Shown in pieces: positions 4,160-51,637 of a stretch of 52,764 nucleotides of DNA. The notes beneath the pieces are model-generated. The model was not told where the DNA came from and did not search any database. It was given only the letters and a program-made list of their open reading frames with translations. Each line of letters begins with the position of its first letter. Position 1 is the first letter of the stretch. This DNA is from Atractiella rhizophila (Eukaryota). The stretch spans positions 1-52,764 of the forward strand of contig MU271496.1 of the NCBI GenBank assembly GCA_021432655.1, written 5' to 3'. A program made the translations under genes and the position numbers.

Positions 4160-5878
4160 ATGATGGCTGAGGAAACATTGATTTCACCGAAGGATGATCA
4201 AGGAACAGAGTCCATGGCACTAGCCCATCTCATCACCCCAGTAACATTACGACATCGCAGTCCAATCCACCTCTCCATTCTTCCCTCTTTCCTTTCTCGC
4301 CTACCTCCATCAATTCACACGCTCTGGATCACGTTTGTCTTACCTATTCGATTCTGGAGCGAGGATTATGGGCCGTCGAAATCATCCTACTTCTCTCTGG
4401 CAGGTCTCGAAAATGAAGTAGAACCCGACGGGACAGTGATTCTTTGCGTCGCGTTGGAGGAGGAAAGTATTGCAGTCACTTTTGGGGATACCAAACATCA
4501 TGCATCCGTTGAATTTGAGGGCCTGTATCGGAAGCCCTTCACATGCACTTTTCGTCTTCCAGATAATCGCTCTCAGGTCCTCTTTGAACCCGTTGCCCTA
4601 TACTCCAAGTGGCAACGGCGTTTCATTCCTCTCAGCGAATGGGAGGAATCAACCATCCCATCTACAGGTCTGGGGACCACCATCCAACTCTCCCTCTACA
4701 AAACTCGACCTACAGGTATTAGTTTATGCAGTATCACACACCTTCCTACTGAGATCCTCTCACTCATCTTCGAGTTTCTTTCATTCGATAAATATGAGGA
4801 GCTTAGAGAAGGTACTGGACGTCTCGTTTCCTTCGAGCAACTTTCTGACGTCTGTCAGCTCTGGAAGGCTGTTTCAGTCCAATATTTGGATGATGATATA
4901 TCTATGAAGGAGAGGCATGCTCGTTTGACAGCTTATCCTAATGCCGGGCTTTCGTGGTCATCCCTCTGGTTTATGAAACAGCTTGACGATGACAGCGTTG
5001 AGATGGCGAAAGACGCCATCGCTGGCTCGCCGAATGTTACGGAGGTGGAGCTGAATGCATTGTGGAATGAAGAGCAGGCAAAGATTGTGTTGCATGCGAT
5101 TGAAGGCTTGACGAGGTTGGATTGCATAACATTTATTGGGCCAAGTTCGATAAAGTGGAAGAAGGATGTGGTCGAGAATTTTACGCGGAGGATGGGTGAC
5201 AGGATCAGAACCTTCCATGCTTACGACGTGGAGGACTCTGCCTCATTGACATCACCAGGCCTTCAATTGTCATCTGACCTCAAAATCCTAACGCTTTACA
5301 AATACCCGCCTCTCCCATCGCTCTCTCTCCCACTCACTCTCACATGGCTGAATCTCTCCAACCTGTGTCCCCTCCCTCCCTCCGTCTCAGGCTCCTGTCT
5401 ACCGCCTCTTCTAGATTGGCTCCAGATCACCCTCGCCCCCTACTCGCCGGATGGAAAGATCTCCATCCTACCCACTCCGCTCGACCTATCACACCTGAAA
5501 CATCTGACCGGACTCTCCCTCGACGGCGGTGAGGAAACTTCAAACCTTGTTTCCCCCCAGCTCTTCCAAACCCTCAGAAATGCAAAAGCGATAAAGTACA
5601 TAGATGTTCGGTACTGTATGGTGGACTGGGGATTCAAAGGGTTCGTATTCTCAGATTTCATCTGCTGGTTCTTTGGAGGCGGGGAGGTGAAGGAGGAGGG
5701 GGATATGGAGGATGGAGCTGAAAAGGTGAAGACGACGAGAGGACGCAACTTGAGGGTTCAGCTATTCTTTGGAGGGTGGCTTGAGGACGAGATATGCAAG
5801 GCAAGGAGCACATTGAGAGAGTTTGGTGTGAGCAAGAAGGATAAAAATACATGGGTTCGGGAGGGAGGGGAGGAGTGA
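4160..5878 (+). CDS. F-box/LRR protein, copy A (572 aa; start codon uncertain, alternative ATG at 4213)
   Basis: Uninterrupted ORF; F-box motif ITHLPTEILSLIFEFL...LSDVCQLWKAVS; C-terminal LxxLxL repeats (LKILTL, LTWLNL, LDWLQI, LTGLSL). Confidence 0.85.
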   Translation: MMAEETLISPKDDQGTESMALAHLITPVTLRHRSPIHLSILPSFLSRLPPSIHTLWITFVLPIRFWSEDYGPSKSSYFSLAGLENEVEPDGTVILCVALEEESIAVTFGDTKHHASVEFEGLYRKPFTCTFRLPDNRSQVLFEPVALYSKWQRRFIPLSEWEESTIPSTGLGTTIQLSLYKTRPTGISLCSITHLPTEILSLIFEFLSFDKYEELREGTGRLVSFEQLSDVCQLWKAVSVQYLDDDISMKERHARLTAYPNAGLSWSSLWFMKQLDDDSVEMAKDAIAGSPNVTEVELNALWNEEQAKIVLHAIEGLTRLDCITFIGPSSIKWKKDVVENFTRRMGDRIRTFHAYDVEDSASLTSPGLQLSSDLKILTLYKYPPLPSLSLPLTLTWLNLSNLCPLPPSVSGSCLPPLLDWLQITLAPYSPDGKISILPTPLDLSHLKHLTGLSLDGGEETSNLVSPQLFQTLRNAKAIKYIDVRYCMVDWGFKGFVFSDFICWFFGGGEVKEEGDMEDGAEKVKTTRGRNLRVQLFFGGWLEDEICKARSTLREFGVSKKDKNTWVREGGEE

Positions 5879-6842
5879 TGCTGGAGGTACAGATTTCGTC
5901 TGTGTTCTAGAGAAGAAAGAGAAGAAGGTGCACAGTTCGTATCCATCTACTCATCTAACGCAGAATTGAAAAGATGCGGGTTCATATAGGACGACGTCAA
6001 TCATCCATCCCTAGCTCTATTCATCGTATCACATCTCACAAATCTCTCCTCCTTCGTGCCCAACACCTCACACTCGACAATTGCAAGACATCTTCAACCC
6101 CGTTCGCACCAAATCCTTCTGCATGCACTGTTAGAGTCCAATGTCGTTAAAGTTTCCTATGTCCTACTTCCCGGAGTGATTCGGTTTAATAAAGTTTATC
6201 GAAGAGGGATATGGACAATGATGGATGGGGGGAGGGGGGGAGGATTACTTAGTTCCTTGAAGAGGTATATGAGGAGATTCGGTTTGTGAGGAGGATGCTT
6301 TCTGTGTGTATTACGGGTGTCTACTCTCATGCAAACAATTCCGCTAATTCCCTGTAAAAGGGTTTAAGACATCAAATTCCACCCAGAAAGTGTCACAGTG
6401 CGGGATCTTGGTTAAGCTGTTCTCACGGTTGACGATGACTCGTGCGTTCCGATGACGGACCAATTGGCACTTGCTGTCGGAGGTCGAAGACGTGATACAA
6501 TGCCAACAATGGAATTCCTTCAGCCCCTGGTTGAAGGACAAAGTTCCCATCTTGTTGTCCCTTCATTCCTTAATCTTTGTCCAAAGAGTTCCATTTAAGC
6601 ATTCTTCGAGGTTCGGTCATTGTCATGATTGCGTTCTCTTCATCCTCTGCCTTCGCTTCCTAGAAACGTGCATCACCCAGTGTCAACCTCAGAACATCAC
6701 AGCAGAGGGGAGAGACGAACCTGAGCGGTCCTAAAAGCGCGGATTGCATTTTTGAATATAAAGCGATGTGTGATGTGCGTCTCAGCAGTCTACGAGCCCC
6801 TAGTGCTTGCTCCGAACACCCGGTTCGTATTCATTGAGCAAA

Positions 6843-9800
6843 TCAATAAGTACGAAGCGTCAGAGCAAAGTTATAGTGCAAGAGGTAGAAGGGAGGTCGA
6901 CCGGGAAAACCGTTGACGGTCACATCCTTCGTGAGGATGGCAGTGATGGCCGCCTGGACGAACTCGTTGCCTATTCCGGCTTGGGTGTACATTCTGCCGT
7001 CCTTGACAAGGTAGACGGCCTGAATGCACTTCTGTTCTCGTCCATCTATCACCATCAGTACATCAATCTTCAAAATGTCGGATGGAAAGCAAGGACACAC
7101 GCACTTCGCCCCTATGCAGTCTACGTGGAGGTCGATACTCCAATCCCTAGTATGCAACCTTGAACTTCTCCTTCATGATCCCCGCGGTCTTCATCGAGTA
7201 CGCTATCCTCTGCTCTCCCTCCTTCACTAAACCACAAACGCAAAACACGGCGGGCAAAAGAAAGATAAACGTGAGTCAAGCCATGCATAAGAGACGTTAC
7301 AGTTGGACGCACGTTTGGGACATGAAAGTCTCTGATTCCACATACATATTTGCGAAGCCAGCCTGCCGCTCATGACTGTCGACGGCGATTCTCCTTCTAC
7401 CGCGCCAACGCCTTCCCGACTGCCTGTGCGAGGACTCCTACTAGCTCGGCTCTTCACAACACCATTGGTATTTTTCTTTTGCCGATAGAGCAGAAGAAGG
7501 GGGAGGAAGACGAACCCGCAGATGGCGACGTTCAACCCAGCTTTCGTCGACTACGACGTGCCACACTTTGGACTGCCACGGAGAGCGGTCCTGCCATCAC
7601 TTCTCCTCTTAGGGAAACGTTCTATCCATTCGGTTTCGTTGATCAAGATATTCCATGGGAGCAGAGGGAATGGAACACACATCCTGAAGTTTGTAGGCGC
7701 TTTCCAGCACAGAAATGATAAGTGAGCGATCGGGGAGATGAGTAGACGAGAGGAGCGGTCGTAAAGGTCGTCTCGGAACTTGTAGAACCCTTCAAGAGTT
7801 CCGTCCTGTCATCCAATGCGGTTAGCGCCCAAACATGTACCACAAAGAGGACAAAAGAATGGGAAAAACTCACAAAGGAAGGGTAGCGGCGAACTTGATG
7901 GAAGGCATAGCTCATGCCTTGCCGCTGTGCAGTCGTAAGATGTCCTAAAAGTCACTCTCCGGGCTAAAGTGCGACGCGATCTCCCCTTCTTGAGATGTTT
8001 GACTTTGGGCCAAACAATGTTCATTTTCTTAGCAAGAGGATGAGAGACGGGCAGCGGGGAGAGGTAGAAACGGAGAGCGACTACGCAGGCAGTTTCATGA
8101 CTCAAGACCATAGACCATAGCTACTTTGATGCTGAAATTCATGATCTTCCCATTCGGGGACGTCGGAATCACAGACGCCTCTGCGCGGATCCTGCTTCCA
8201 TCATTTGCGTTGCAAGTTGGGCACAGGAAGAAAAGGATGACAGACGGCAGCGGTGAGATCTTGCGATATCTTGCGCATTCGGAACGCGCCGCGTCGCGAA
8301 TGTGACCCGTGAAAGCGAAATCGAATGGGATTTCGGTTAAGTCATCAGAAATGGCCTGACTGCTCCAGCTACGTTCATTTCCTCCGCCTCCGCAAGCAGT
8401 CACTAGTCCGCGGTCTCTGAACATCCTCCATCGTCTCTCGATCTCCGAGTCCGCCGCCCTTCGCTCTTTCTCGCTCTGAGCTAGCCGTTTCTTTCATGCA
8501 GCCCCATGCCTCACTCCTCTTGCGTCTCGCTGGTCTCCTTCGCTGTGGATAGTGCTGGTGTCCCTCTCCTATCCCAGTCACCTTCGGCATCACCTCCGGC
8601 TCCTCTCTCCTCTTCAGTACTCTTCACCGTAGCTATCCCCCACCGTCCCCTTCTGCTGCTGATGGAACCTTCCTAAGACCACGGGTGATAGAGTCGGTAC
8701 GAACCAAAATACTTGGACAGCTGGTGACAGAGCACGCTCGACAGGGTGGCGACGCGCAGGGAGGGTAGACGGTAGTGGGGGTGTGCGCAAGTGATGAATG
8801 GACAAGTGCAATTAGCGCGAAGAAGGGAAGAAGGGAAGGAATAAAGATACATTGCCAACAGAATGTAATGGAAGGCGAAGTGTGACAAAGATCGAAGGGA
8901 CAGAGTGGTACGAGAGAAGAGGTGACCGTCTCGTCCCCTCTCCCTCTGTTTGCATTTGCGTTTACTGACATAGGTATTAGGTTTCTCTCCCGTCACCCTA
9001 GTAGCCATCGCCCTTCTCCCCCTGCAACTCCGTCCCGCCTCAGCGCTGCTCGTCCCTCCCCGCGTCCTGACTTACCCTCACTGCCGGGCTAAGAAGCGAG
9101 AGGGCAGTTAGGAGGAAGCAGGAAGGGTCGCCCCGCTGCACCAGTCTCAATACCTCAAATCCGACCTATCCGTCTTTCCCCTAACCCTTGCCACACCTCT
9201 CGCCTCTCTCGCTCCATCATCGCTTTCTCCCTACACCCCCGTCGACATCCATCATTCTTCGCTCCTACACCAACCTTTCTGTCCTCCAAAATGAACGCCA
9301 GGCCGAGTTGGACGTCGGATCGCCAAAGCAGAGGACGGAGTGAGACAGCGGGTAGGGGATTGAGCCTGGACATCGGAGAGGCATGATATGCTTTCTCTCA
9401 CCCACGGTTGCCCTGTCGCTTTGCCTCGCTCTCTACCATTCCCACCCCCGCTTCAGCCGTCCCTCGACTCTGAGCAACTTGCTTCACCGTAGACATCGCA
9501 AGTCAACCGCGAAGCGTAGTAAGGCGCGTGATGGCGAAGGAGGTGGACTGTGGCTCAGATGCGGTCGGAAGGGGTTCAGAGAAAAGTCCCTGCCAACCTG
9601 TTCGCCCAGCCCGCTCGTGCCGCCCTCGTTCGCCGCCTCGCCCATTCTCTTGCCCTCCACTATTGCCTATTCCCCCTCCAATCCCCGCACAATGGTGATC
9701 TAAGGCTAACCCAGAGCACGGTAGACACATCAAATGGCAAAAAACTTGGACAGAGGGAACAACATTGGTTGCTGATCGATCACAGAAGGAAGAGAGAGTG

Positions 9801-11000
9801 ACCGTCCCGGCGTCTCTCCCGCTCCTTTTTTGACATTCGCCAACTCATTTTGCCTCACTTACCCTCTCACTCCACTTCGCATCCCTCTCCGCCTATGTTC
9901 ACCGTTCATTTCCACCAACCTGTCCGCCTTTTCGCATTCTCGCCTCGTTGGGCTTTCCTCTCTCCCGGAGTGTATTTTCTTTCTCCCTTCCTCTCTCCCT
10001 GATACAAGTGTCCTTAATAACACGCGCACTAGATCCGTTGCGCCCCCCTTTCTGCTAGTCTCAATCCACCTCCTCTCGCACTCCACCGTCCCTCACGCCT
10101 CCACCAAGCCTGTGGAGCGCACCGAAGTCGAATGTGGGCTGAATGTTGGACGTCGCAGAGCGAAAGGGGAAGGAAGAAGTGTCACGAAGCCGACAATCAA
10201 CGTGGGATGTCACAGCGACGCCTCGCATTTTCTTTCCAACTTCTGTTCGCACTCCCGTTCGATCCCTCCTCGCCCATGTTCCATCCCGCTCTCCTACTCT
10301 CTCTCCCACCTCATTCTCCTATCCTCCGTTGCACTCCGGCTCGCATTACATAGATCACCTTCGCCCTACGCTTGCTTCGTGACATCGATGTCAAAAAAGA
10401 GATAGCTGATGGACAAAGAGGAGGGGAATGTGGGCAGTGATGGATCAGGCCACAAGTGGACGTCTAGGTCAGTCCCTCTCGTGCTCCTAAGCCTCTACCA
10501 TCCATCCCTTTAATCTCCCACTACTGACTCAAATGTCATATAACTTCTCGCAAGTGGCCACGTCTGCCTCCTCTGTCATCCTGATTGCTAACTGCCCTCC
10601 ATAATGTCCCAGCCCTATCTAGCCTTGCTCTCACAATCAGATATGGACGAAGCATCAGTATCAGGCGTTCTGCCTAGCGCTTGCAGTGTAATTTAGGTAC
10701 TGGTATTGCAAGGGATTTCAGTTCTTTTGCATATTTTAGGCTTTCCTGTGACATTAGTGCGAGGAAACCAAAGCCTTCAATGTCCGGACGCCGACTTCCA
10801 CCCAACACCATTCGAATTGCAAACGGCCACGTAATCCATAGACTCCCACGAACGGTTATGCGATCTCCATCTTCACGAGTTGGTGATATCTGATTTGCCT
10901 GATCATTGCGCCGAGAACGTCGAGATGGTTCAAGTTGGACAATGCACTGATGAGCTGCAGGCATGATTTGATCTCTCTGCGTTGTCTCGTTTAATGTGCG
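6843..11000 (-). pseudogene. Degenerate multi-exon gene ('gene X') of array unit B, head-to-head with F-box copy B
   Basis: DNA aligns by eye with 41700-46500 and 46850-51500; shared peptides (EFVQAAITAILTKD vs EFVQVPITAVLTKE; ATDLVRVLLRTLV vs ARDLVCMSVRTLV); many stops/frameshifts; boundaries approximate. Confidence 0.45.
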
Positions 11001-12765
11001 TTCGTGGGCTCTAGTCCAGCGTGTTATCTCCCAGAATGAAAGAAAGAAAAACATCGATGTCATGCAAGCATGCAAGGATGATCAGGGGACAGAGTCAATC
11101 GCACTGGCGCATCTCATCACCCCAGTAACATTACTCCATGGCACTCCAATCCACCTCTCCATTCTTCCCTCTTTCCTTTCTCGCCTACCTCCATCACTTC
11201 ACATGCTCCGGATCACATTTCTCTTACCCATTCGATTCTGGATGTTCGGATATGGGCCATCGAAATCATCCTACTTCTCTGTGGCGGGTCTCGAAAATGG
11301 AGTCGAACCCGACGGTGCAGTGATTCTTTGCATCGCGTTGGAGGGGGAAGGCATTATGGTAATTTTTGGGGATACTAAATGTCGTGCATTCTCGGAATTG
11401 GAGCGCCTGTCTCCGGAGCCCTTCACATGCACTTTTCATCTTCCAGATAATCACTCTCAGGTCCTCTTCGAACCCGTTGCCCTGTACTCCTGGAAGAAAC
11501 GGCGTTTCATTCCTCACAGCGAATGGGAGGAATCAACCATCCCATCCACCGGTCTGGGGACGACCATACAACTCTCCCTCTCCACAACTCGACCTACAGG
11601 TATTAGTTTATGCAGTATCACACACCTTCCTACTGAGATCCTCTCACTCATCTTCGAGTTTCTTTCATTCGATGAATCTGACTATCTCGTTTCCTTCAAG
11701 CAACTTTCTGCCGTCTGTCAGCTTTGGAGGGCTGTTTCAGTCCCTTATCTGAATGAAGATGTTTCTGTAAAGGAGAAGCATGCTCGTTTGACAGCTTATC
11801 CTAATGCTGGGCATTTGTGGACATCCCTCTCAGTTGACGATGACATCAGCATTGCGATGGCGAAAGATGTCATCGCTGGTTCGCCGAATGTTACGGAGGT
11901 GGCGATGGATGCATTTTGGAATGAAGAGGAGGCGAAGATTGTGTTGCATGCGATTGAAGGCTTCATGAGGTTGGATGACGTAATGTTTGGAGGGCGAGGT
12001 TTGAGACAGTGGAACAAGGATGAGGTCGAGAATTTTATGTGGAGGATGGGTGACAGGATCAGAAAGTTGCGTGCTGTCGAAGTGGAGGACTCTGCCTCAT
12101 CAACATCACCAGGCCTTCAATTATCATCTGACCTCAAAACCCTAACGCTTCACGCATACCCGCCTCTCCCGTCGCTCTCCCTCCCACTCTCCCTCACGTC
12201 ATTGCGTCTAGACAATCTGTGTCCCCTCCCTCCCTCCGTCTCTGGCTCCTGTCTGCCGCCTCTTCTAGAAGAACTCGAGATCAAGCTCGCTTCCTACTTG
12301 CCTAATGGGAAGATCTCCATCCTACCCATTCCGCTTGAGCTATCACACCTCAAACATCTCACACACCTCGAACTTGATGGAGGTGAGGAAACTTCAAACC
12401 TCATTTCCCCCCAGTTCTTCCACACACTCGCAAATGCAAAAGCAATAGGCTATATAGAGGTTCGGTACTGTGTTGTGGACTGGGAATTCACTCAGTTCGT
12501 ATTCTCAGATTTCATTCGCTGGTTCTTTGGGGACAGAGGGGTGAAGGAGGGGGGAGATGCAGTGGATGTTGCTGACAAGGTGAAGAGGAGGAGAGGACAC
12601 TATTTGGCGGTCGAGCTGTTCTTTGGAGCATGGCCTGAGGAAGAGATATGCATGGCTAGGAGCACCTTGAGAGATTTTGGTGTGAGCGAGGAGGATAAAT
12701 CTACATGTGTTTGGGAGGGTGGGGAGGATGATCCTGGAGGTACTCAGATTTTACTCACGGTCTAG
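10996..12765 (+). CDS. F-box/LRR protein, copy B (first in-frame ATG at 11062; start uncertain)
   Basis: Uninterrupted ORF colinear with copy A over its whole length; same F-box and LRR motifs. Confidence 0.85.
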   Translation: MRSWALVQRVISQNERKKNIDVMQACKDDQGTESIALAHLITPVTLLHGTPIHLSILPSFLSRLPPSLHMLRITFLLPIRFWMFGYGPSKSSYFSVAGLENGVEPDGAVILCIALEGEGIMVIFGDTKCRAFSELERLSPEPFTCTFHLPDNHSQVLFEPVALYSWKKRRFIPHSEWEESTIPSTGLGTTIQLSLSTTRPTGISLCSITHLPTEILSLIFEFLSFDESDYLVSFKQLSAVCQLWRAVSVPYLNEDVSVKEKHARLTAYPNAGHLWTSLSVDDDISIAMAKDVIAGSPNVTEVAMDAFWNEEEAKIVLHAIEGFMRLDDVMFGGRGLRQWNKDEVENFMWRMGDRIRKLRAVEVEDSASSTSPGLQLSSDLKTLTLHAYPPLPSLSLPLSLTSLRLDNLCPLPPSVSGSCLPPLLEELEIKLASYLPNGKISILPIPLELSHLKHLTHLELDGGEETSNLISPQFFHTLANAKAIGYIEVRYCVVDWEFTQFVFSDFIRWFFGDRGVKEGGDAVDVADKVKRRRGHYLAVELFFGAWPEEEICMARSTLRDFGVSEEDKSTCVWEGGEDDPGGTQILLTV

Positions 12766-17199: not shown

Positions 17200-17200
17200 A

Positions 17201-17213
17201 CTTCCCCCTCCTT
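17201..17213 (-). other. Polypurine tract of Gypsy element B
   Basis: AAGGAGGGGGAAG on the minus strand, 1 nt before the LTR's TG. Confidence 0.85.
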
Positions 17214-35125: not shown

Positions 35126-35249
35126 CTATTAATTTTTCCAACATCTGAATAGCATCCATTCCCTGAGCTTTATAAAGACTTTCTGCTCACCCATATATCC
35201 CGTGAAAAAGGCAGAGGCTCGAGTGATAAACACCATGTGTTGAAGTAAA

Positions 35250-41713: not shown

Positions 41714-44700
41714 TTATGGGTAGGCGGTAGGAAGGAGATGGAACCAAATGAAGCTTGGACACTCTTTCGTGAGGACTGCCGTGATGGGCACTTGGACAAA
41801 CTCGGTTGACTGTGTATATGTTTGTTGTCCTCGACGATTCGCACCTGTTCCCCTATCTATCAGTATCCATACGTCAGGATTCAAAGTGCAGGATGGGAAG
41901 CAAGGAGACATGGCCCGCAGCTCTAGGGCAGTCTACGACGATGTTGATGCCGTCCAATCCCTCTGCCACCTTGAATTTATGCTTCCTGATCCCGTGACCG
42001 TCAACCGATACATGATCCTCTGTCTCCATCCTTCACTAAAGCATCAACATCAACATGCCGTCTACCAAGAAACAGAAACGTGAGACAGACCATGAATTGG
42101 ACAGGTTATAGTTGAATGCACGTTTGGGAGGAACAAAATTCTCAGATTCAGCTTCGCTTCCCTCGACATCTTTGTAGTCGTTTCCTTCTCAACGTGGTGT
42201 CGCCCGCCATCAGATTTGGTGCGTGGATGCAAGTGTCCGAAAGAAAAGGTCTCTCGACGAGCAGCCGTAACAGTAGGGTCAGAAGGCAGGAGGAGAAGGA
42301 AGAGATGTTGTCAAGATTGTTCGGTGCGAATTGGCTGCATATTGTCGACAATCCCATCCTTCCTCACAGTTGCCTCCTTCGCTTCTTCGGCGCCGGTTCA
42401 TCCTCCTTCTTGGCACCTAAAACCAAAGCCTCCTTCGTGCCTTCGCCGAGACAAGGAATGGAGAACTTACTCTTCAATGCACCACCGCCAGACTGAGCAA
42501 TCTAAGATATCGAGAGGAGGTGTCTGTAGCTGTACCTGTTGATTTGGGCTCTGGTAAGGGCGATGGAGGGACAGAAAGCGGCTGCGGACAAGGAGTAAGC
42601 CTGGGCATAGGTATTTCTTCACTGCTGTATTCGTTCTCTCCTGTGCGGGTGGTAGGCACAGGAGATGGTGCTGAGGTCAACACATCGGCTAGGGAGAGTC
42701 GACACTCACTGGGGTTGCCGCTGGAGGAACAACAGAAGGCTTTGGAGCCGGAGGAGGAGCAACGGCGCCAGAGGATGTTGATGTTGTTGCAAGTGCTGAA
42801 GGAGCAGAAGTATGCTTCTTGCTACTTCTGGGGAGTCGCACCACCTGTCGCCTTTTAGCAGAGGAAGTGACAGAATGGAAGTTAACCCCCTTGATGTGAT
42901 ATTGAAATGGTCTCGGCGGGCTGACCCATCGATATGCCAACGTAGCGGCAGTGAAGAGGGACTCTTCAGGACGTTCCTGGTGTTCCTCCCTCGTCCTTAT
43001 AGACTTCTGAGAAGCCCAAATATCATGTATCTTTGTCTCCATCAGTCTTCGCCAGAGATAAACGAAAGAGAAACGCACTCAAGATGTCTGTCCACATAGG
43101 GGGACCCTGGCTCCTGGTCACTGACAATACGGTGCTTCCCCGCCCACCTTCTCCCCTCCTACTTCCTGCAGCTCCAATATGATGGCACATATTCACACCA
43201 CGTCCTCCAGCTTCAGCTTCATGTGTACAATTCCAACATACCAATCATCTTCCCCTCGTTTAACTGTCGTGAAAGCGAGATCTGTTGAGAGGCGGTAATC
43301 ACTCATCATGATATCCGTGAACGCACGATATGGGTGAGGAACGTGTCGAGTGTGGAAATGAGAAGAGCAGTCAAAGGAGCATCTGCTGGACTGATATCTT
43401 TCACTGGCGCTTTTGCCTGGCATCCGGACGAAAGAAGTGACTGGCATAGACCATTGGTCACTGGGAATGACGATTTGATGCTTGCCCATCAACGTGACCA
43501 TGAACGTGCAGAAAGCTTTCAACGCTCTGTCGTCTTAACGTTCTTTATCTGCTTGGAATCTCCTGCAGCCAACATTCCATGCATGTAAAAAGGCAAGGAC
43601 GGTTCGAAGGCACCACAGTGTAGACTGTGCACGAAGTCCAGAGAGCGATGTGTTGCCTTAATGAAGAGCTCCAGAAGTCCCTCTCTCACACGATGGGAGA
43701 GATGGATAGGAAGCTTTGTTTACAGCAAGGAGAGCATCATCAGCTCTGCGAGTACGTGCATAAAATCTCCGGCAACAATCTTTCTTTCAGGTTCTCAGCA
43801 GGCATTCTCGACATATCGCAGTATAACCAAATTTTCCCCTGGCAGTTTGCTTCAAGAACTGAAGAAGAACACACAAATTGGCACCGTTGATTAGCCTCCT
43901 ATCAGTCTCATTCCTGCCAACTCCATCCCTCAGTCTAGTCTAGCTAAGAATGTGTCAAAGGCCACACGGGAATGGGAAACACGGCGGCGAGGTGTAAATC
44001 TCGACAGTCTTTGTTCGGGTAGACCGTTGCATGAAGAGTCTCCAGCAGTTGAATGATTTTCTACGATCGCCAGGATGGGATGTGCGAGCAGCTCCCTTTT
44101 GTGTCATCTCCTCCGTCCTCCGCGTGCAGTCTCCAGCACACCCACTGTGCTTCACGCATTCTATCCTTCATTAGCCATCTATCGTATCTCCGCCATCATT
44201 CCCGCCATACACGTTTTCACTTCGCTTCCTTTTTCAAGCAGTCCCAAGCGCACCTCTCGCGTCCTCTCATCTGTCCCCGGTCTCCTTCACTCTGGCCGGT
44301 CCTGGTGTGTCCCTCTCCTGTTTCGGCATACTTCGCCACTCCCCCAGCCCCGCTCTCCTCCGCATTCTTCTTTCGTCTCAGCTATCCGCACCGTCCTCTT
44401 TTGTTCATGAACCCTTCCCACACACGAAGGCCAATGTAGTCGGTAGTGCTTCCGTGAGCAAGTGATAAATGGACAAGTACAATCAGTGCTAAGAAGGGAG
44501 GGGAAGTGAGATGCATTGTGGACAGAATGGTACGTAATGGTAGGTGAAGGACAGATATGGAAAGGGAGAGCGAAGCACGAGTCCATGACAGACAATACTG
44601 ACTAAAAAGGAAGGTGCTAGCATTGCTGATCTTCTGCTCAGTGGAAGTGAGCCTGAGGACGGCAGCGCACGACAAAAAGGAGGCGCGCACTAAGTGCAGT

Positions 44701-46500
44701 GGAGGGCAAGAACGCGAGGAAGGCGAAAGAGAGGCTAGGTATGGATCCTACTATGGTCCACGGAGGGCTAAAACTTTTATAGCGACGAGAGGCGTGAGAG
44801 AAGACGTGACCTTCCCTCCCACTTTCCCTCTGTTGCATATGTGCTTAAGGACATAGGGAACAGGTTCCTTGCCCCTTCCCCAAGGGCTATCCTCACCCTG
44901 CTCCTGCAGCCTCGTCACGCCTCAGCACTGCTCGACACTCCCAGCGTCCCAACTTACGTTTGCTGCCAGGGCCACCAAGCGAGAGAGCAGCGCGAGGGAA
45001 GCGTTGGAGGCAAAAGGAGACACGCGGGAGCGCCGTCCTGCATCAACTCAATACCTCCTTGCGCCGTCCCACTTTCCGCTCTGCCGTAACCATCGCCCTG
45101 CCGCTCTCCGTCCAGGATCCCTCTCCCTTTACTTCCATGTTCCTCTCGTCATCCATCGCCCTCCACTCTTCCAGCAACCGCTGTGCCCTCCGAAATGAAC
45201 GGTGAGTGCGAGTTGGACGCGGATCGCGATAGCAGATGAGGGAGGTGACACTTTGGGTTGATTTGGGTCGGTGATGACTGAAGGACGCGAGAATGACCGT
45301 CCAAGCGTCTCTACCCCTCCTTTTTAACCTTCGCCATCTCCTTTCGCCTCACTTACCTTTCATTCCACCTCCCATCCCTCTCTGCGAATGTTCACCTTCA
45401 TTTCCCCCTCCACCAATCTCTCCACCTTTTTCGCATTCTGGCCTCGTTGGGGCTGCCCTTTCCATTCGGAGTGTGTTCCCTTCCTCCCTCTCCCTCTCCA
45501 TGCTACGGGCGCCTTAACTGGCATGCACACTAGGTCCTGTGCTCCGTTTTCTACTAGTCTCACCCCACCTCCTCTCGCACTCCACCGCACCTCACGCCTC
45601 CAGCAAGCCCGTAACTCGGAAGTTGAACACGGACAGGGGGTTGGACTTCGGCTAGCGATGGAGGAAGGGAGTAGTGTCAAGGGGGCCATAATCAACAGAG
45701 GATGTCCAAAGGACACCTCGCACTTTCTTTCGCACCTCTGCACCCAATCCCTAGCCATCCGTCGCCGTTCTATGCCCTCTGTTCCATCCGCCCTCCTATT
45801 CTCTCTCCCACCTCATCCTTCACTTTCTGTCGCACTCCATGGATCACCTTCCACCAACGCTTGCGTCATTACATCCAGGCCAACAATGAAAATGCTGATG
45901 GAGAAAAGGAGGCAATGGGGACAGAGTTGGAACAGGGACCAAAGAGGACATCTAAGTCGGTCCCTTTCGCGCTCCTAAGCCTTCGCGCTCCATCCATCTG
46001 GTCTCCCGCTACTGACTCAAGTGTCATCTCTGTTCTCGCAAGTAGCTTGCTCTGCCTCCTCTGTCATCCTGATTGCAAACTGACCTCCCTTACTGCCCCA
46101 GCGCTACCTAAACCTTCTCTCTCACAGTCAGATCACTACGGAACGAAGCATCAATATCAAACCGTTCTGCTCTAGCTCTCGTTCGAAATGCATTGTAATT
46201 TAGGTACCAGTATTGCAAAGGATTTCAGTTCTTTTACATATTTTAGGATGTCTTGTGGCACTATCCGGTAGTCAAGTGAGAACTAAAGCCTTCAACGTCC
46301 GGACACCAACTTCTTCCACCCAACACCATCCTAATCTGACCTAATTGCAAACGGTTGCCTAATCCACCAACTCTCACGAGCAGTTTTGCGATCCATCCAT
46401 CCTCACGACCGCGTCGTCTGATCATTGTGAGGAGAAGGTCGAGATGGCTGAACAATACGCACTGCAGGCATGATCTGATCTTTCCCCCTCACTTGTCTCG
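41714..46500 (-). pseudogene. Degenerate gene X of array unit D
   Basis: Homologous to 6843-11000 and colinear with 46850-51500; protein-like broken frames (e.g. APLTALLISTLDTFLTH); boundaries approximate. Confidence 0.5.
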
Positions 46501-46531
46501 TTTAACATGAATTCATGGGCGATAGTCCAGC

Positions 46532-46844
46532 ATGTCTTCTCCAGGAACGACCGGGAAGGAAACACTGGTCTCACAGAAGGATGATCAGGGAACAGAGTCA
46601 AGCGCACTGGTCCATCTCATTACCCCAGTAACGTTAGGACATGACACTCCGATCCACCTCTCCATCCTTCCCTCTTTCCTTTCTCGCCTACCTCCATCAG
46701 TTCACATGCTCCGGATCGCATTTGTCTTGCCTCTGGAATTCAGGAGCAAATCTTATGGGCCGTCGAAATCATCCTACTTCTCTCTGGAAGGTCTCGAAAA
46801 TGGAGTCGAACCCGACGGTGCAGTGTCTCTTTGCATCGCGTTGG
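46532..46844 (+). pseudogene. F-box/LRR copy D, N-terminal ~100 codons
   Basis: KDDQGTES..LVHLITPVTL...GLENGVEPDGAVSLCIAL then an abrupt switch to unit E sequence. Confidence 0.9.
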
Positions 46845-46849
46845 CACGC

Positions 46850-49800
46850 CTTAGCTGTCACCTCCTTCTCAGACGTGGTGTAGTTCGGCATGAGATTGGT
46901 GCGTGGATGCAAGTGTCCGACAGAAAAGATCCTCCAACGAGCAGCAGTCGAGGACAGTGGGGGTCAGAAGGGAGGGGGAGGAGAAGGAAGGAGATGCTGT
47001 CGAGATTTTCCGGTGTGAATTGACCGCGTCTGCCCTCCCAATCCAATCCTTCCTCACAGTTGCCTCCTTCACTTCCTCCTTACTCTTCGGTGCTGGTCCC
47101 TCCTCCGTCTTAACATCTCAAACCAACCCCACCTTCATTCTTTCGCCGAAAAACACGAAGGTTTCTGGAGCTGTACTTGTTGATTGGGGCTGTGATAAAG
47201 GCAAGCGGCTGCGACAAGGAGTGAGTGTAGGTGTAGGTGTTTCTTCACTGCCGTATTTTTCTCTCCTGTGCGTGTGGTACTGAGGCGTTGAAGAGGTAAA
47301 ACCTGCCGGACCATTTGGCATCACTGGAGCGGTGAGATCTGGCTAGCTGACGCGGATAAGGCACAGAGAATGGTGCTGGTGAGGTAGAAGCATCGGCAAG
47401 GGGAGTCGATGCTCACTGGGTTGCAGCTGGAGGAACGATAGAAGGGTTTGGAGGCGAAGGAGGTGAAACGGTGCCAGAGAAGGTTGATGTTATTGCAAGT
47501 GCGGATGGAGCAGAAGTATGCTTCTTGCTCGTTCTGGGGAGAAGCGAGATCGCACCACCTGTCGTCTCCAGCAGAGGCTAGCACAGAATGGAAGTTGCTC
47601 ACCTTGATCCGATATTCGAATGGTCACAGTGGGCTGGCGTATCGATGCGCTAAGACGTGGCAGTGATGGGGAACTCTACAGGACCTCCCCGGCGTTTCTC
47701 ACTCGTCCTTATGGAGTTCTTAAGGAGCCGAAATATCATGTATCTTTGTCTCCAAAAGTGTTCACCAAACACAAACGAAAGAGAAACGCACTCAAGATGT
47801 CCGTCCACGTAAGGAGACTCTCGCTCTGCTCCTCGTCACTGACAATATCAAGATTGATACTCCGTTGCCCCCCTTCTCCCCTCCCTCTTCATGCACATAT
47901 TCGCACCGTGTCCTCCGGCTTCAGCTTCATATTCGCAATCCAACGCACTTATCCTCCTTCCCATTGTTGAACTGTCGTGAAAGCGAGATGTGGTCAGAGG
48001 CAATCACTCATCTTGATATCCATGAACACACCCATATGAGTGAGGAAGGTGTTGAGTGTGGAAATGAGAAGAGCAGTCTTAGGAGCCTCTGCTGAACTCA
48101 TGTCTTTCATTCGTGCTTTTGCCGGGTGTCTAGGGGGAAGGACTGACATCGCCATGCTAACTGGGATGATGATTTGATGCTTTCTCATCAACGTTATTAT
48201 GAACTTGCAGAAAATCTTCACCCCCACCCCCCCTAATGTTGTAGCAATGGGGCAATAACTCTCCAGAAACTCCTTCGGCCAACGGTCCAAGCGTGTGAAA
48301 AGAAGACACTAACAGCTCGAAGGCATCACAGTGTAGACTATGCACAAAAGTCCAGAGAGACGTGTTGCCACGATGAATGGGAGGTACTCTCCAAAGCGAT
48401 GGGAGATATGGAAGCTATGTTTACAGCTGGAGAGCAACAATCACACCTGCAAGTCCGTGCATAAAATCTCTGGTAGCAACTCTACTTTGAGAGGTTCTCA
48501 GCACCATTCTCAACATATCGCAGTATACTCAACGCTTCCCCTGGCAATTTGCTTCAAGAACTAAAGAAGAACACACAAGTTGGTGTCGTTGATCAACTCC
48601 TCTCAGCCTCATTCCTGCCAACTCCATCCATAATCCAGTCCGCCTAAGAATGTCAAACGCCACAGGGGAATGGGAAACACGGCTGGGAGGCTTAAATCGC
48701 GACGCCTTTGGCAGATCGTTGCGTGAAAAACTGGGATGTTGTTGAATGATTTTCTACGATCGCCAGCAATCTGGGAGCAGTTTGTGTCATCTCCTCCGAC
48801 CTCTGGGTGCAGTCTGCAGTCCACCGACTGTTCTTCACACCTTCCATCCTTCGTTCTCCTTCTATCGTATCTCCGCCATCGTTTGCCCTTCACGCTTTCA
48901 CTTCACTGTGTTTTTCATGCAGTCCCCAGCACACCTCTCTCGCATCCTCTCATCTGTCGCTGGTCTCCTTCACTCTGGCCAGTCCTGGTGTGTCCCTCTC
49001 CTGTTTCTGCATACTTCGCCACTCCCCCAGCCCCGCTCTCGTCCGCATTCTTCTTTCGTTTCAGCTTTCCCCCACCGTCCTCTTTCCTCAAGCACCTCCC
49101 CACACGCGACACCCGATGTAGTCGGTAGCACTGGTGTGAGCAAGTGATGAGTGGACGAGTATAATTAGTAAGAAGATGGGAGGGAAGTGAGATGCATTGT
49201 GAACAGATGGTACGCAATGGTAGATGAAGCGTGCAGAAATGGAAAGGAAGAGCGAAGCATGAGACCATGACAGACAACACTGACTGAGAAGGAAGGTGCC
49301 AGCATTCCTGATCTGCTGCCCAGTGAAAGTGCGCCTGAGGACCGCATAGCACGACAAAGGATGCACGCGATGTGCCGTGGAGGGCAAGAACGAGCGAGTA
49401 AGGGCGAAAGAGAGGCTAGGTATGGATCCTATTATAGTCAACGGAGGGCTAACACTTTTATAGCAAAGCCAGGTGCGAGAGAAGAGGTGCCTTCCCTCCC
49501 CCTCTCCCTCTTTTGCATTTGTGCCTAATGACATAAGGATCAGATTCCTCGCCCCCTCACCGGTTCGAAACGAGAGAGCAGTGCGAGGGAAGCGTGGGAT
49601 GCAAAAAGGAGACAGGACAGCGCCGTCCAGCTCCAGTTTCAATACCTGCTCCGATCTATCCCCCCTTTCCCGCTTCCCGTACACCTGCACCTCTCGCTCC
49701 AACAATCCTCGTGCCTCGCTTCCGTGCTACTCTCGCCATCCGTCCTCCTATGCTCCTCCAGCAACTTCTCTGTCCTCCGAAATGAGCGACAAGTAAAAGC

Positions 49801-51500
49801 TGGAGGTCGGATCGCGAAAGCAGAGGACGGAGTGACAGAGCAGGTCGGCCATTGCGATGGACAACGGAGAACCATGCTATGCTTTCTCTCACCCACTGAT
49901 GCCCCCCGTTTCGCCTCGCTCTCCAACACCATCCCTCATGCCCGCATCCTTCGCCTCGAACCAACTTGCTTCGCACTAGACATCAGAAACCAACCGCGAA
50001 GCGTAGGCGTATGTGATGGAGAAAGAGGAAAGACTGCGATGCTGCCAATCCCCAACTCACGCTGCCAACTTTCGCTATCACGGCTTGTTCTCCACCATTG
50101 CCTAGGCAAGGAACCCCCCCTCTCCACTGCGGCCTTTACCTTGTCGCATACTGGTCATTTAATATCAACACAAAGCACGGGGGACACATCAAATGGGGAA
50201 AGGTAGACATAGAGGGAACGTGGTTGGTGATGGCAGAATGACCGGAGAAGGATCGTCCCGGTGTTCTCCTACTCTCCGCCATCTCCTTTCACCTCGCTTA
50301 CCCTCTCACTCTGCCTCGCATCCCTGTCTGCCAACATTCACCCTTCATCTCCCCTTCCACCAACCCCTCCGCCTTTTCACATTATGGCCGCATTGGGCCA
50401 TTTCTTTCTGCTGGCAATGTATTTCGTTTCTCTCCTCTCTCCAGCTACAAGTGTCCTAACTGACATGCACACTAGGTCCCTTGCTCCGCCGCTCCCCTTT
50501 CCTGGCAGTCCCACTCCCCTCCTGTCGCACTCCACTGGCCCTCCTGCCTCCACCAAGCCCGTGGCTCGGAAGTTGGACTCGGAGTGGAGGTTGAACGTTC
50601 GAAAGCCAACGGGGGAGGAAGAAATCATAACAGGTCCATAGTCAAGATGGGATGTCGGAGATACACATCACACTTTGTCTCGCCGTTCCGTTCGCACTCC
50701 CTCGCCATCCCTCATCATCCTATGCCTTCCCCGTGTCCTCATGCCGCCATCCTATTCTCTCTCCCACCTCACCTTCAATCGCACTCCGGCTTGCACTTCA
50801 TGGCTCCTTTTCCACCGACGCTTGTTTCATGACGTTGGGGGCAACAATTGAAATGGCCGATGGAGAAAGAGGAGGGCAAAGTGTGCAGTGTGGCATCAAG
50901 GACCACAAGTGGACATCTAGGTTGGTCCTTCTCGTGTTCCTGAGCCTCCGTCCTCCATCCCTCTTGTCTCCCGCTAGTGACTCAAGTGACATCTATGTTC
51001 TCGCGAGTAGTTCCTCTGCCTCCTCTGTCATCCAGATAGGTAACTGCCTCTTTAACTGTCCCAGCCACATCTAGCCTCTCCTCTCACAATCAATCATTAC
51101 GAAACGAAGCATCAATATCAGAGCGTTCTGCACTAGCTCTCGTTTGATTTTCAGTGTAATTTAGGTACTAGTATTGCAAAGGAATCTTTTACATGTTTTA
51201 GGACTTCCTGCAGCACTATCTGGTAGTCAAGTGCTGGAGAACTAAAGCCTTCAACGTCCGGACGCCCACTTCCACCAACACCATCCTAATCCGTCTTAAT
51301 TGCAACGATCGCCTAATACATCGCCTCCCACGAACAGTTCCGGGATCTCCATCTTCATGAGTAGTGATATCTGATCTGCTTGATCCTTGCGCAGAGAACG
51401 TCGAGATGGTTCAAGTTGGACAATGCACTGATGCGCTGCAGGCATGACCCGATCTCTCCCCTTGTTGTCTCGTTTAATGTGCGTTTGTGGGCTTTAGTCC
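46850..51500 (-). pseudogene. Degenerate gene X of array unit E (3' end deleted)
   Basis: Begins at sequence matching ~42180 (TGGTGCGTGGATGCAAGTGTCCGA) and stays colinear with unit D. Confidence 0.5.
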
Positions 51501-51548
51501 AGCTTGTTATCTCCAAGAATGAAAAGAAGAAAAACATCGATTTCATGC

Positions 51549-51637
51549 AAGGATGATCAGGGGACAGAGTCCATCTCACTGGTCCATCTCATTACCCCAG
51601 TAACGGTAGAACATGGCACTCCGATCCATCTCTCCAT
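51549..51637 (+). pseudogene. F-box/LRR copy E, interrupted by LTR retrotransposon insertion
   Basis: KDDQGTESISLVHLITPVTVEHGTPIHLSI, then the TG of the LTR at 51638. Confidence 0.85.

What the first reader, a model, noticed from the sequence alone, without database searches (positions are those of the whole stretch)
4160..51637. Tandem F-box/LRR array diversifying at exposed LRR strands, surrounding an NLR: candidate immune-type cluster
Seen: five same-orientation F-box copies (A-B spacing ~6.9 kb) plus an inverted fragment. Scaffold segments are conserved (YPPLPSLSLP, NLCPLPPSVSGSCLPPLL, LDGGEETSNL), while the x positions of the LxxLxLxx strands differ: LKILTLYKY/LKTLTLHAY, LTWLNLSNL/LTSLRLDNL, LDWLQITLA/LEELEIKLA/LEYLKIKLA, LTGLSLD/LTHLELD/LTRLYLD, IKYIDV/IGYIEV/IDTIDV. 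Established: this pattern marks diversifying selection on the ligand face of plant NLR LRRs, and expanded birth-and-death F-box families in nematodes and plants have been proposed as anti-parasite SCF adaptors. Inference: a rapidly evolving SCF substrate-receptor family, possibly a ubiquitin-based defence or non-self system co-located with a patatin NLR.
Basis: partly seen in the sequence, partly recalled or inferred. Interest (0 to 1): 0.78.

Follow-up and report, generated by a model that had tools for sequence, protein, structure and literature searches.

The report
Fast-evolving fungal F-box/LRR family beside NLR
A root-endophytic fungus carries a large family, so far seen only in that species, of likely ubiquitin-ligase adaptor proteins whose binding surface changes unusually fast, and members of it repeatedly sit next to one type of immune-receptor-like gene.

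Summary
The window is a whole 52,764-bp contig; hit names assign it to Atractiella rhizophila. The quoted motifs are all present, but the copy count is wrong. Only A (4160-5878) and B (11062-12765) are intact. The other four pieces are pseudogene fragments cut by Gypsy-type and other repeats. An F-box motif survives in A, B and the inverted fragment only.

Each protein has an unknown N-terminal beta domain, an F-box and about ten LRR strands. The family has at least 61 paralogues, and every named full-length relative is from this species.

Variation is concentrated at alternate exposed positions of the LRR strands. A and B differ at 23 of 30 such positions against 55 of 248 elsewhere. These positions hold 24 of the 30 most variable family columns. 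With the synonymous rate shared across the domain, omega at these codons is about 5.6 (LRT p=4e-8; 0 of 300 neutral simulations reach it). Diversifying selection is therefore supported, from only two or three sequences.

The NLR link looks more than coincidental. The closest relative of this NLR's TPR array is a gene model fused to a family member, and a second such model exists. Skp1 binding, targets and any immune role are untested.

The parts
4160..5878 (+). Copy A: intact single-exon gene from ATG 4160 to the stop. It has the beta domain, an F-box (about 4733-4873) and the LRR domain. It ends ...WVREGGEE like the family consensus.
   Evidence: Pfam F-box-like scores 17.1 bits, below the 24.3 cut-off. 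It is not among the annotated proteins returned.
11062..12765 (+). Copy B: intact gene. Beta domain about 11089-11586, F-box about 11617-11739, LRR domain about 11797-12633 (residues 246-524).
   Evidence: The annotated protein P0004 is 99% identical over 94% of the query.
23094..23663 (-). Inverted pseudogene fragment covering residues 85-281. It has an F-box motif (LPAEILSLICNFL) and one in-frame stop. It lies on the same strand as the NLR and downstream of it.
39171..39674 (+). Fragment C: the C-terminal ~160 aa only (last four LRR strands and tail). Its 5' end abuts a Gypsy RT/RNaseH fragment on the minus strand.
46464..46855 (+). Fragment D: the first ~110 aa only. It then runs into the next copy of a 4.7-kb tandem unit.
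51403..51637 (+). Fragment E: the first ~60 aa, with a frameshift and a stop. It is cut at 51638 by a repeat end.
28382..32605 (-). NLR: 1407-codon open frame with patatin, NACHT (Walker A GGAGNGKST) and a TPR_12 array. The array is built of 120-nt units at about 28732-29749 that are 70-72% identical.
5939..10921 (.). Spacer of the 6.9-kb A-B tandem unit. Contigs of sequencing runs show spliced joints on both strands. No ORF here has a Pfam match. Its 3' 2 kb is also conserved upstream of D and E.
42183..51637 (+). Two tandem copies of a 4.7-kb unit (42183-46844 and 46863-51637; their longest aligned block, about 2.2 kb, is 78% identical). Each copy ends in an N-terminal gene fragment (D, E).
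16258..23146 (-). Gypsy/Ty3-type pol debris: RVT_1, RNase H, integrase, and two chromodomain segments. It abuts the inverted fragment.
38661..39188 (-). Gypsy RT/RNase H fragment that truncates copy C.
25812..26178 (-). PIF1-like helicase fragments (Helitron-type), lying between the NLR's 3' end and the inverted fragment.
34854..35129 (+). Helitron_like_N fragment upstream of the NLR.
   Evidence: E 8e-25.
24454..24894 (.). Repeat end. It is 99.7% identical to 51638-52035 (direct) and 82% identical to 13327-13745 (inverted). It marks the breakpoints that cut the array.

Best explanation
A and B are intact members of a large tandemly amplifying gene family, so far seen only in Atractiella rhizophila. 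Its proteins most likely act as substrate receptors of SCF ubiquitin ligases.

Each protein has three parts. The first is an N-terminal beta-rich domain of about 165 aa with no recognisable relative. The second is an F-box, which would dock on Skp1-Cul1. The third is a solenoid of about ten leucine-rich repeats, which would hold the substrate on its beta-strand face.

The family turns over by unequal crossing-over, segmental exchange between copies and transposon hits. The hydrophobic scaffold and the F-box are kept, while the exposed alternate residues of the LRR strands are replaced faster than silent sites change. Copies therefore differ mainly in what they can bind. The targets are most likely proteins that are themselves variable or foreign.

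Shown: the architecture, restriction to one species among the relatives whose names I checked, birth-and-death evolution, positional hypervariability, and excess nonsynonymous change.

Inferred: Skp1 binding, ubiquitination, the nature of the targets, and a defence role.
For: Architecture:
- Pfam F-box-like scores 25.3 bits against a cut-off of 24.3 in B. At E<=0.01, 26/38 members match.
- The invariant columns include L189, P190, E192 and W222; that these are the LP..E...W signature of F-boxes is my recollection, not a tool result.
- The only PDB sequence matches are F-boxes: 4 of 4 (FBH1, Skp2 twice, Fbw7), but weak at E 0.04-0.34.
- The AlphaFold model has alternating strand/helix repeats at residues 250-470 with pLDDT about 90. 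The best Foldseek matches are LRR proteins, including the F-box LRR proteins D3/MAX2, Dia2 and Skp2 (best E 1.4e-3, probability 1.0).

Family range:
- 61/61 word-indexed hits are A. rhizophila.
- A profile search of 1.84 billion representatives gave 107 hits at E<=1e-3 and 72 at E<=1e-10.
- Of the 72, I checked the names of 29, and all are A. rhizophila.
- The four named foreign hits I checked match the F-box region only (one of them also about 45 positions before it), not the LRR domain.

Selection:
- 23/30 strand positions differ between A and B, against 55/248 elsewhere.
- dN at these codons is 0.80, against a domain dS of 0.285 (Fisher p=6e-5).
- A codon model with a shared synonymous rate gives omega_x=5.6 and omega_rest=0.56. 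The LRT against omega_x=1 is 30.2 (p=4e-8). The result is significant in both halves of the domain and in the A-C and B-C comparisons.
- 0/300 neutral simulations reach the observed statistic. Random 30-codon sets from the rest of the domain reach omega of at most 1.39.
- The family-wide entropy pattern agrees.

Turnover.

Transcripts: contigs of a run that carries GT..AG joints, and of a root metatranscriptome, lie on A and B at 95-100% identity.
Against: - Pfam finds no LRR family at E<=1, and A's F-box score (17.1 bits) is below the cut-off.
- The F-box segment of the model has low confidence (pLDDT 42-51).
- If the 30 codons are given their own synonymous rate, omega is 1.65 and not different from 1. 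By Nei-Gojobori their own pS is 0.54 on 17 synonymous sites, giving omega 0.84.
- The 30 positions were fixed after I had seen the entropy profile.
- Only two or three sequences have DNA available.
- dS is uneven: 0.1-0.2 in the first ~380 codons against ~0.4 afterwards. A and B are therefore mosaics, and patchy gene conversion could inflate local differences.
- Contigs cannot separate A and B from paralogues that are >=95% identical, so expression of these two copies is not proven.
- Nothing bears on Skp1 binding or on targets.
Confidence: 0.55

Rival explanations
1. NLR-partner model. Family members work as pairs with patatin-NACHT-TPR NLRs. They could be the monitored partner or decoy of the neighbouring NLR, as SEC-9 is for PLP-1. 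They could instead be adaptors that set the NLR's stability. The LRR face would then co-evolve with NLR sensor repeats rather than with outside targets.
For: - Among proteins of 773-2463 aa, the only A. rhizophila protein with this NLR's TPR type is P0069 (E 1e-185, 44% identity). Its TPR array and C-terminal cap run directly into the family's beta domain and LRR domain.
- P0064 joins a TPR_12 unit and cap to the family's F-box and first LRRs.
- Of the 117 family gene models scanned (36 of alignment A1, 81), 4 carry a foreign Pfam domain. Two of these 4 are such TPR arrays; the others are RhoGAP and SH3.
- In the window, the inverted fragment lies downstream of the NLR on the NLR's strand. The 4.7 kb between them contains Helitron helicase debris and a repeat end.
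- The PLP-1/SEC-9 precedent comes from passages of PMC10197012.
Against: - P0069 and P0064 may be gene models merged by the annotator.
- P0069 lacks the F-box segment.
- The family has at least 61 members, but I found only two NLR loci of this TPR type, so there is no one-to-one pairing.
- The two intact copies lie 15-24 kb from the NLR on the other strand.
- The expected rate of chance adjacency could not be computed because no genome is held.
Confidence: 0.2
2. Ordinary regulatory expansion. The family diversifies to handle the fungus's own substrates (development, symbiosis, signalling), like the F-box expansions of mushroom-forming fungi. It has no role in non-self recognition, and the NLR neighbourhood reflects a shared transposon-rich compartment.
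For: - F-box, BTB and RING families are remarkably expanded and fast-evolving in Agaricomycetes (passages of PMC10282164, which cites Krizsan et al. 2019).
- The window is rich in Gypsy and Helitron debris. NLRs and young gene families commonly accumulate in such regions (my general knowledge).
Against: - Own-substrate adaptors are not expected to show omega well above 1 confined to one binding face.
- Restriction to one species.
- The two TPR fusions.
Confidence: 0.15
3. Decay. The copies are drifting, redundant or dying genes, and the pattern reflects relaxed constraint on surface residues only.
For: - Four of the six pieces in the window are dead.
- Whole-gene omega is high at 0.65.
- A is not among the annotated proteins returned.
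- Omega from the 30 codons' own synonymous sites is not above 1.
Against: - A and B keep open frames of 572 and 567 codons.
- Scaffold and F-box residues are invariant across 38 members.
- Omega for the rest of the domain is 0.56.
- Neutrality at the strand positions is rejected when the domain's dS is used.
- Even the closest family pairs (14% different elsewhere) differ at 64% of strand positions.
Confidence: 0.07

Closest known systems
Expanded, positively selected F-box families of nematodes and plants
   Same: Large lineage-specific families in tandem clusters, with many pseudogenes. The F-box is conserved and the substrate-binding part is variable. A role against parasites has been proposed. 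Sources: search listings and abstracts only of PMC8120010 and PMC3719486; the rest is my recollection.
   Different: Here the variable part is an LRR solenoid with a strict alternate-residue pattern. The protein has an extra N-terminal beta domain with no relatives. The host is a fungus. Members are linked or fused to NLR-type TPR arrays.
Hypervariable xxLxLxx strand positions of plant NLR and receptor-like LRRs
   Same: Conserved leucines, with replacement-rich exposed positions between them on the strand face (recalled textbook knowledge, not from a call).
   Different: The LRR here is attached to an F-box, not to a nucleotide-binding domain. Fungal NLRs are reported to lack LRRs (PMC5658179, legend of Fig 2).
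F-box expansions in mushroom-forming fungi (Agaricomycetes)
   Same: Basidiomycete F-box families that expand and evolve too fast for orthology to be traced (passages of PMC10282164).
   Different: Those are discussed in the context of development. The passages I read reported neither site-specific selection on an LRR face nor an NLR link. This family is in a Pucciniomycotina endophyte and has no detectable relatives in Agaricomycetes beyond the F-box motif.
PLP-1/SEC-9 allorecognition pair (Neurospora, Podospora, Cryphonectria)
   Same: The NLR here has the same order of parts: a patatin-like phospholipase, a nucleotide-binding domain and TPRs. PLP-1 recognises the product of a partner gene through its C-terminal repeats (passages of PMC10197012).
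   Different: No SNARE gene was found in the window by the ORF scans. The Pfam best match for the nucleotide-binding domain is NACHT (33.5 bits), not NB-ARC (13.6 bits). The neighbour is an F-box/LRR family member.
FBXL proteins (Skp2, D3/MAX2, Dia2)
   Same: An F-box followed by an LRR solenoid. These are among the best structural matches.
   Different: The matches are weak (E 1e-3 to 4e-2, TM 0.16-0.25). There is no sequence-level LRR match. The F-box is preceded by a 165-aa beta domain.

Membership tests
F-box proteins (Pfam PF12937/PF00646) | F-box motif scoring above the curated cut-off | tested here: met
   B scores 25.3-25.4 bits against a cut-off of 24.3. A scores 17.1 bits, below the cut-off. 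At E<=0.01, 26/38 aligned members match PF12937.
F-box proteins (Pfam PF12937/PF00646) | Conserved LP..E...W signature residues | tested here: met
   L189, P190, E192 and W222 are invariant in 38 sequences. The alignment to the FBH1 and Skp2 F-boxes covers them (E 0.04-0.34, weak).
F-box proteins (Pfam PF12937/PF00646) | Binding to Skp1 and assembly into an SCF ligase | not testable with these tools
   No Skp1 sequence of this fungus could be obtained. The F-box segment of the model has pLDDT 42-51.
FBXL (F-box plus leucine-rich repeats) | LRR domain recognised by sequence profile | tested here: not met
   No LRR family of Pfam matches at E<=1 in A or B, and none matches in 38 members at E<=0.01.
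FBXL (F-box plus leucine-rich repeats) | LRR solenoid fold C-terminal to the F-box | tested here: inconclusive
   The model has about ten strand-turn-helix repeats with pLDDT about 90. The top Foldseek rows are all LRR proteins, but the best E is 1.4e-3 and TM is 0.26 or less.
Diversifying LRR receptors (pattern, not a homology family) | Excess nonsynonymous change at exposed strand positions | tested here: met
   omega_x is 5.6 against omega_rest of 0.56. The LRT against 1 gives p=4e-8 with a shared synonymous rate. 0/300 neutral simulations reach it. It is not significant with the 30 codons' own rate (omega 1.65).
Fungal NLR (STAND) proteins, for the gene at 28382-32605 | N-terminal effector domain, central NOD with P-loop, and C-terminal repeats | tested here: met
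   Patatin scores 56.8 bits (cut-off 27.7), NACHT 33.5 (26.7) and TPR_12 113.2 (30.1). GGAGNGKST is seen in the translation.
PLP-1/SEC-9-type allorecognition locus | Adjacent polymorphic SNARE (sec-9) partner gene | tested here: not met
   No SNARE family appears among 49+96 ORFs scanned. The PF14938 'SNAP' match lies inside the NLR's own TPR array. Exons shorter than 75 codons were not scanned.

The most novel reading that the evidence does not exclude
The beta-domain/LRR module is a germline-diversified intracellular recognition repertoire that works together with TPR-type NLRs, and is sometimes fused to them. This would give a fungus the LRR-based sensing that fungal NLRs are thought to lack. 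The F-box versions would route what is recognised to ubiquitination, as a ubiquitin-coupled arm of fungal innate immunity.
Probability: 0.12. Interest if true: 0.85.

Novelty: new variant of a known kind. Interest (0 to 1): 0.62.

Why it matters
Fungal innate immunity is currently built around NLRs that use TPR, ankyrin or WD40 repeats and are reported to lack LRRs (PMC5658179). Two fungal NLR papers in which I searched for the term do not mention F-box at all (0 occurrences each).

This family behaves at its strand face like plant resistance-gene LRRs, carries a ubiquitin-ligase docking motif, and recurs next to one NLR lineage. That would be a concrete, testable candidate for a second recognition layer in fungi.

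It also supplies an unknown 165-aa domain and a clean natural series of binding-face variants for structural work.

If the immune reading fails, it remains a well-documented example of site-specific diversifying selection in a family so far seen in one fungal species only.

Tried and rejected
- Whole genome: none is held. I could therefore make no genome-wide count of NLR proximity and no codon alignment of the at least 61 paralogues.
- Earlier scan notes: nothing found by place or by sequence.
- Fold of the N-terminal domain (model pTM 0.71): the best Foldseek E is 0.66. The best VIA-align Z is 3.4, to Ig-like or macroglobulin-type sandwiches over 68-78 residues. I name no family, and this does not show that the fold is new.
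- Protein atlas on residues 1-185: best score 0.82, which is noise level.
- Complex prediction of the NLR TPR region with the beta domain: not folded by the tool, so there is no information either way.
- NLR paralogues: the patatin-NACHT part (residues 100-900) found no A. rhizophila protein of 773-2463 aa. Only 5 distant fungal or unnamed hits came back.
- ORFs of the spacers and of the 4.7-kb unit: no Pfam family apart from transposon debris. A Toxin_10 hit at E 0.0029 (17.7 bits against a cut-off of 28.6) was dismissed.
- Uncovered stretches in the run contigs (3000-3687, 12632-13300) carry no weight.
- Literature:
  - 'Atractiella rhizophila' is held by 15 papers. The 13 listed are, by title, ecology or taxonomy (listing only).
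  - Searches combining F-box with fungi, positive selection and LRR, with Agaricomycetes, expanded and LRR, and with fungal NLR and allorecognition listed no paper on such a fungal family.
  - These are full-text word searches of open-access papers only. Supplements were not read.
Full report
**What the window is.**

The best database hit of copy B is a protein whose longest contig is 52,764 bp, the length of the window. It is named as a hypothetical protein of Atractiella rhizophila, and all 61 of 61 hits carry that species name. The window is therefore a whole contig of this Pucciniomycotina fungus. No whole genome is held for it.

**Map of the family in the window.**

tblastn with the two long ORFs and a self-comparison of the window give this map.

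| Piece | Coordinates | Strand | Content |
|---|---|---|---|
| A | ORF 4139-5878, ATG at 4160 | + | complete |
| B | ORF 10972-12765, annotated ATG at 11062 | + | complete |
| inverted | 23094-23663 | - | residues 85-281, F-box present, one in-frame stop |
| C | 39171-39674 | + | last ~160 residues only |
| D | 46464-46855 | + | first ~110 residues only |
| E | 51403-51637 | + | first ~60 residues, frameshift and stop |

- A and B are 73.5% identical in protein and 82% in DNA. Their units are spaced 6854-6884 bp apart.
- C abuts a Gypsy RT/RNase H fragment at 38661-39188 on the minus strand.
- D ends where a second copy of a 4.7-kb tandem unit begins. The units are 42183-46844 and 46863-51637, and their longest aligned block (about 2.2 kb) is 78% identical.
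- E is cut at 51638 by a repeat end that is 99.7% identical to 24454-24851.

An F-box motif exists in A, B and the inverted piece only.

**Surroundings.**

- Gypsy-type pol debris fills 16258-23146 on the minus strand.
- The NLR at 28382-32605 (minus strand) is a 1407-codon open frame. It has patatin (56.8 bits), NACHT (33.5 bits) and TPR_12 (113 bits). Its repeats are 120-nt units that are 70-72% identical.
- The NLR is flanked by Helitron debris. PIF1-like helicase fragments lie at 25812-26178 (minus strand). A Helitron_like_N fragment lies at 34854-35129 (plus strand).
- A fragment matching Mgm101 lies at the left end.

**What the protein is.**

- *Pfam.* Only an F-box is seen: B scores 25.3 bits against a cut-off of 24.3, and A scores 17.1. 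No LRR family matches at E<=1. Of 38 aligned members, 26 match F-box-like at E<=0.01.
- *Conserved residues.* The invariant columns of the alignment include L189, P190, E192 and W222. I recall these as the F-box signature. The only sequence matches among solved structures are four F-boxes, all weak at E 0.04-0.34.
- *Predicted structure.* An AlphaFold model built on the 38-sequence alignment has mean pLDDT 72. It shows three parts:
  - a beta-rich N-terminal domain at residues 10-175, with pLDDT about 80;
  - a poorly defined F-box segment, with pLDDT 42-51;
  - about ten strand-turn-helix repeats, with pLDDT about 90 at residues 250-410 and 54-86 beyond that.
- *Fold matches.* Foldseek's top matches are all LRR proteins: NLRC4, internalins, and the F-box proteins D3/MAX2, Dia2 and Skp2. 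The scores are weak (best E 1.4e-3, TM 0.26 or less).
- *N-terminal domain alone.* Modelled separately it has pTM 0.71. It has no convincing structural relative. The best Foldseek E is 0.66. The best VIA-align Z is 3.4, to Ig-like sandwiches.

**Range of the family.**

- A profile search that read 1.84 billion representative proteins found 107 with E<=1e-3, 72 with E<=1e-10 and 43 with E<=1e-30.
- I checked the names of 29 of the 72, and all are A. rhizophila. The other 43, mostly short pieces, were not checked.
- The four named hits from other fungi that I looked up are from Gymnopilus, Dentipellis, Paramarasmius and Marasmius, at E 3e-9 to 7e-5. They match the F-box region only, one of them also about 45 positions before it.
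- The 61 hits lie on 37 different contig lengths. Eleven contig lengths carry two to six members each, 35 of the 61 in all. The family therefore sits in many tandem clusters. Some gene models are two copies run together (P0026, P0005).

**The selection test.**

*Whole-gene figures.* Between A and B, Nei-Gojobori omega is 0.65.

| Region | omega |
|---|---|
| beta domain | 0.72 |
| F-box | about 1 (few changes) |
| residues 251-390 of ORF P0001 | 1.36 |
| tail | 0.57 |

*Per-residue pattern.* The picture changes at single-residue scale. In each of ten predicted strands, the two core hydrophobic positions have family entropy of about 0-1.9 bits (15 of 20 are below 1). The three positions around them have 2.5-3.7 bits in 26 of 30 cases. 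I fixed these 30 positions by that structural rule, though after seeing the entropy profile.

*Counts.*
- A and B differ at 23 of the 30 positions, against 55 of 248 in the rest of residues 246-524.
- Shifting the set by one or three residues gives 6-8 of 29-30. Shifting by two gives 16-18 of 30, as the periodicity predicts.
- Across 38 members these positions hold 24 of the 30 most variable columns. All 703 of 703 pairs differ more there than elsewhere. Pairs only 14% different elsewhere differ at 64% of these positions.

*Codon tests.*
- dN at the 30 codons is 0.80, against dS of 0.285 for the domain (Fisher p=6e-5).
- A Goldman-Yang-type pairwise model with one synonymous rate for the domain gives omega 5.6 at the 30 codons and 0.56 elsewhere. 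The LRT against omega=1 is 30.2 (p=4e-8).
- The two halves of the domain give omega 17 (p=2e-6) and 4.4 (p=1.6e-4). A-C and B-C over the last four strands give 6.9 (p=1e-4) and 4.4 (p=0.003).
- With the rate fixed from the other codons, none of 300 neutral simulations reaches the observed statistic. None of 200 random 30-codon sets exceeds omega 1.39.

*Results against this reading.*
- If the 30 codons are given their own synonymous rate, omega is 1.65 and not different from 1.
- Their own Nei-Gojobori pS is 0.54 on only 17 sites.
- dS is about 0.1-0.2 in the first 380 codons and about 0.4 afterwards. In the C-terminal part A is closer to C than to B. The copies are therefore mosaics, and small conversion patches cannot be excluded.
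- That the variable residues face the concave side rests on general LRR geometry, not on coordinates I could inspect.

**Expression.**

One search found two runs. Contigs of run X2 (kind not recorded) carry clean GT..AG joints in the A-B spacer. One example is 8919 to 8979 at depth 532 in a record without mismatches. They also carry CT..AC joints at 6658-7516, so this run is RNA-derived. X2 contigs cover 26 of 30 bins, including every bin over A and B: 379 contigs were laid, 150 of them at >=99% identity.

A root metatranscriptome (X1) gave 19 contigs, with pieces on A (4532-4648) and B (11503-11664) showing 0-3 mismatches.

Contigs cannot rank expression, and paralogues >=95% identical could supply them. 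This is a hint that the family is transcribed, not proof for A and B. The spliced spacer transcripts have no convincing ORF.

**The NLR link.**

- *Patatin-NACHT part.* The patatin-NACHT part has no A. rhizophila relative of 773-2463 aa. The NLR itself is not among annotated proteins of that size.
- *P0069.* The NLR's TPR part has exactly one such relative, P0069 (E 1e-185, 44% identity; the next hit is at 1e-53 and unnamed). P0069 is a 1169-aa model from a 316,639-bp contig. It consists of the same 40-residue TPR units and C-terminal cap. It then continues without a spacer into the family's beta domain (40-43% identical to A and B) and LRR domain (42%). The F-box segment is skipped.
- *P0064.* P0064 comes from a 29,513-bp contig. 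It joins a TPR_12 unit and a similar cap to the family's F-box and first repeats.
- *Foreign domains.* Among the 117 family gene models scanned (36, 81), four carry a foreign Pfam domain. Two are these TPR arrays, one is RhoGAP and one is SH3.
- *In the window.* The inverted fragment lies on the NLR's strand, 4.7 kb downstream. The gap holds Helitron helicase debris and a repeat end.

Three loci thus show the order 'NLR tail, then family member, same strand'. The two models may be annotation merges, and I could not see their DNA. I also could not compute the chance expectation without the genome. I rate a real association as more likely than not, and a functional pairing as about one in five.

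**Comparison with what is known.**

- Expanded, fast-evolving F-box families are known from nematodes and plants (PMC8120010 and PMC3719486, listings and abstracts only). They are also known from mushroom-forming fungi (passages of PMC10282164).
- Replacement-rich xxLxLxx positions are the textbook signature of plant resistance-gene LRRs (recalled).
- Patatin-NLRs that recognise the product of a partner gene are known as PLP-1/SEC-9 (passages of PMC10197012).
- Fungal NLRs are reported to lack LRRs (PMC5658179, legend of Fig 2).
- 'F-box' occurs zero times in two fungal NLR papers that I searched for the term.
- Three word searches listed no paper on a fungal F-box/LRR family of this kind. Only open-access full texts were searched, and no supplements were read.

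**Verdict.**

- a diversifying family of putative SCF adaptors, so far seen in this one species only: yes, on the evidence available;
- a link to one NLR lineage: suggestive;
- immune or non-self function: untested.

This is a new variant of a known kind, with one unknown domain and one unusual association worth following up.

Noticed in passing
window 25812-26178 (-) and 34854-35129 (+): Helitron debris lies on both sides of the NLR: PIF1-like helicase fragments on one side and a Helitron_like_N fragment on the other, on opposite strands. Whether a Helitron moved the NLR or the array pieces was not examined.
   Followed up: no
window 8472-10611 (+) and 6406-7516 (-): Contigs of sequencing runs show multi-intron spliced transcripts in the A-B spacer. 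No ORF there matches Pfam. The 3' 2 kb is conserved (71-74%) upstream of fragments D and E. These could be long 5' leaders of the F-box genes or non-coding RNAs.
   Followed up: partly
window 4139-5878 against 10972-12765: Synonymous divergence between A and B is about 0.1-0.2 in the first ~380 codons and about 0.4 in the last ~200. In the C-terminal part A is closer to fragment C than to B. This points to exchange of segments between copies.
   Followed up: partly
window 28382-32605 (-) and 4160-5878 (+): The 1407-codon NLR frame was not returned as an annotated protein of 773-2463 aa, and copy A was not returned among proteins of 328-1045 aa, although both frames are open. They may be unannotated or modelled differently.
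   Followed up: no
window 12730-12765: The annotated protein for B (P0004, 633 aa) splices past the ORF's stop codon into 76 extra residues. Paralogues and copy A end at the family's ...EGGEE terminus, so the annotated extension looks doubtful.
   Followed up: no
window 1654-1919 and 2378-2643: A 266-nt inverted repeat, 96% complementary, with arms 458 nt apart, lies near the left end. It looks like a foldback or MITE-like element.
   Followed up: no
window 13327-13745, 24454-24894, 51638-52035: Three copies of one ~400-nt repeat end: two are 99.7% identical and direct, and one is 82% identical and inverted. They mark the points where the array is broken. The element they belong to was not identified.
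   Followed up: no
window 28732-29749 (-): The NLR's TPR array is built of 120-nt (40-residue) units that are only 70-72% identical to one another. This is not the near-identical internal repeat type described for some fungal NLRs.
   Followed up: no
proteins P0062 and P0095 (other contigs of the same species): Two family gene models carry RhoGAP and SH3 domains. They are probably merges with neighbouring genes.
   Followed up: no
window 11149-11190 (B residues 30-43): The motif IHLSILPSFLSRLP in the unknown N-terminal domain is almost invariant across the family (entropy near 0). It is the most conserved feature outside the F-box and the LRR scaffold.
   Followed up: no
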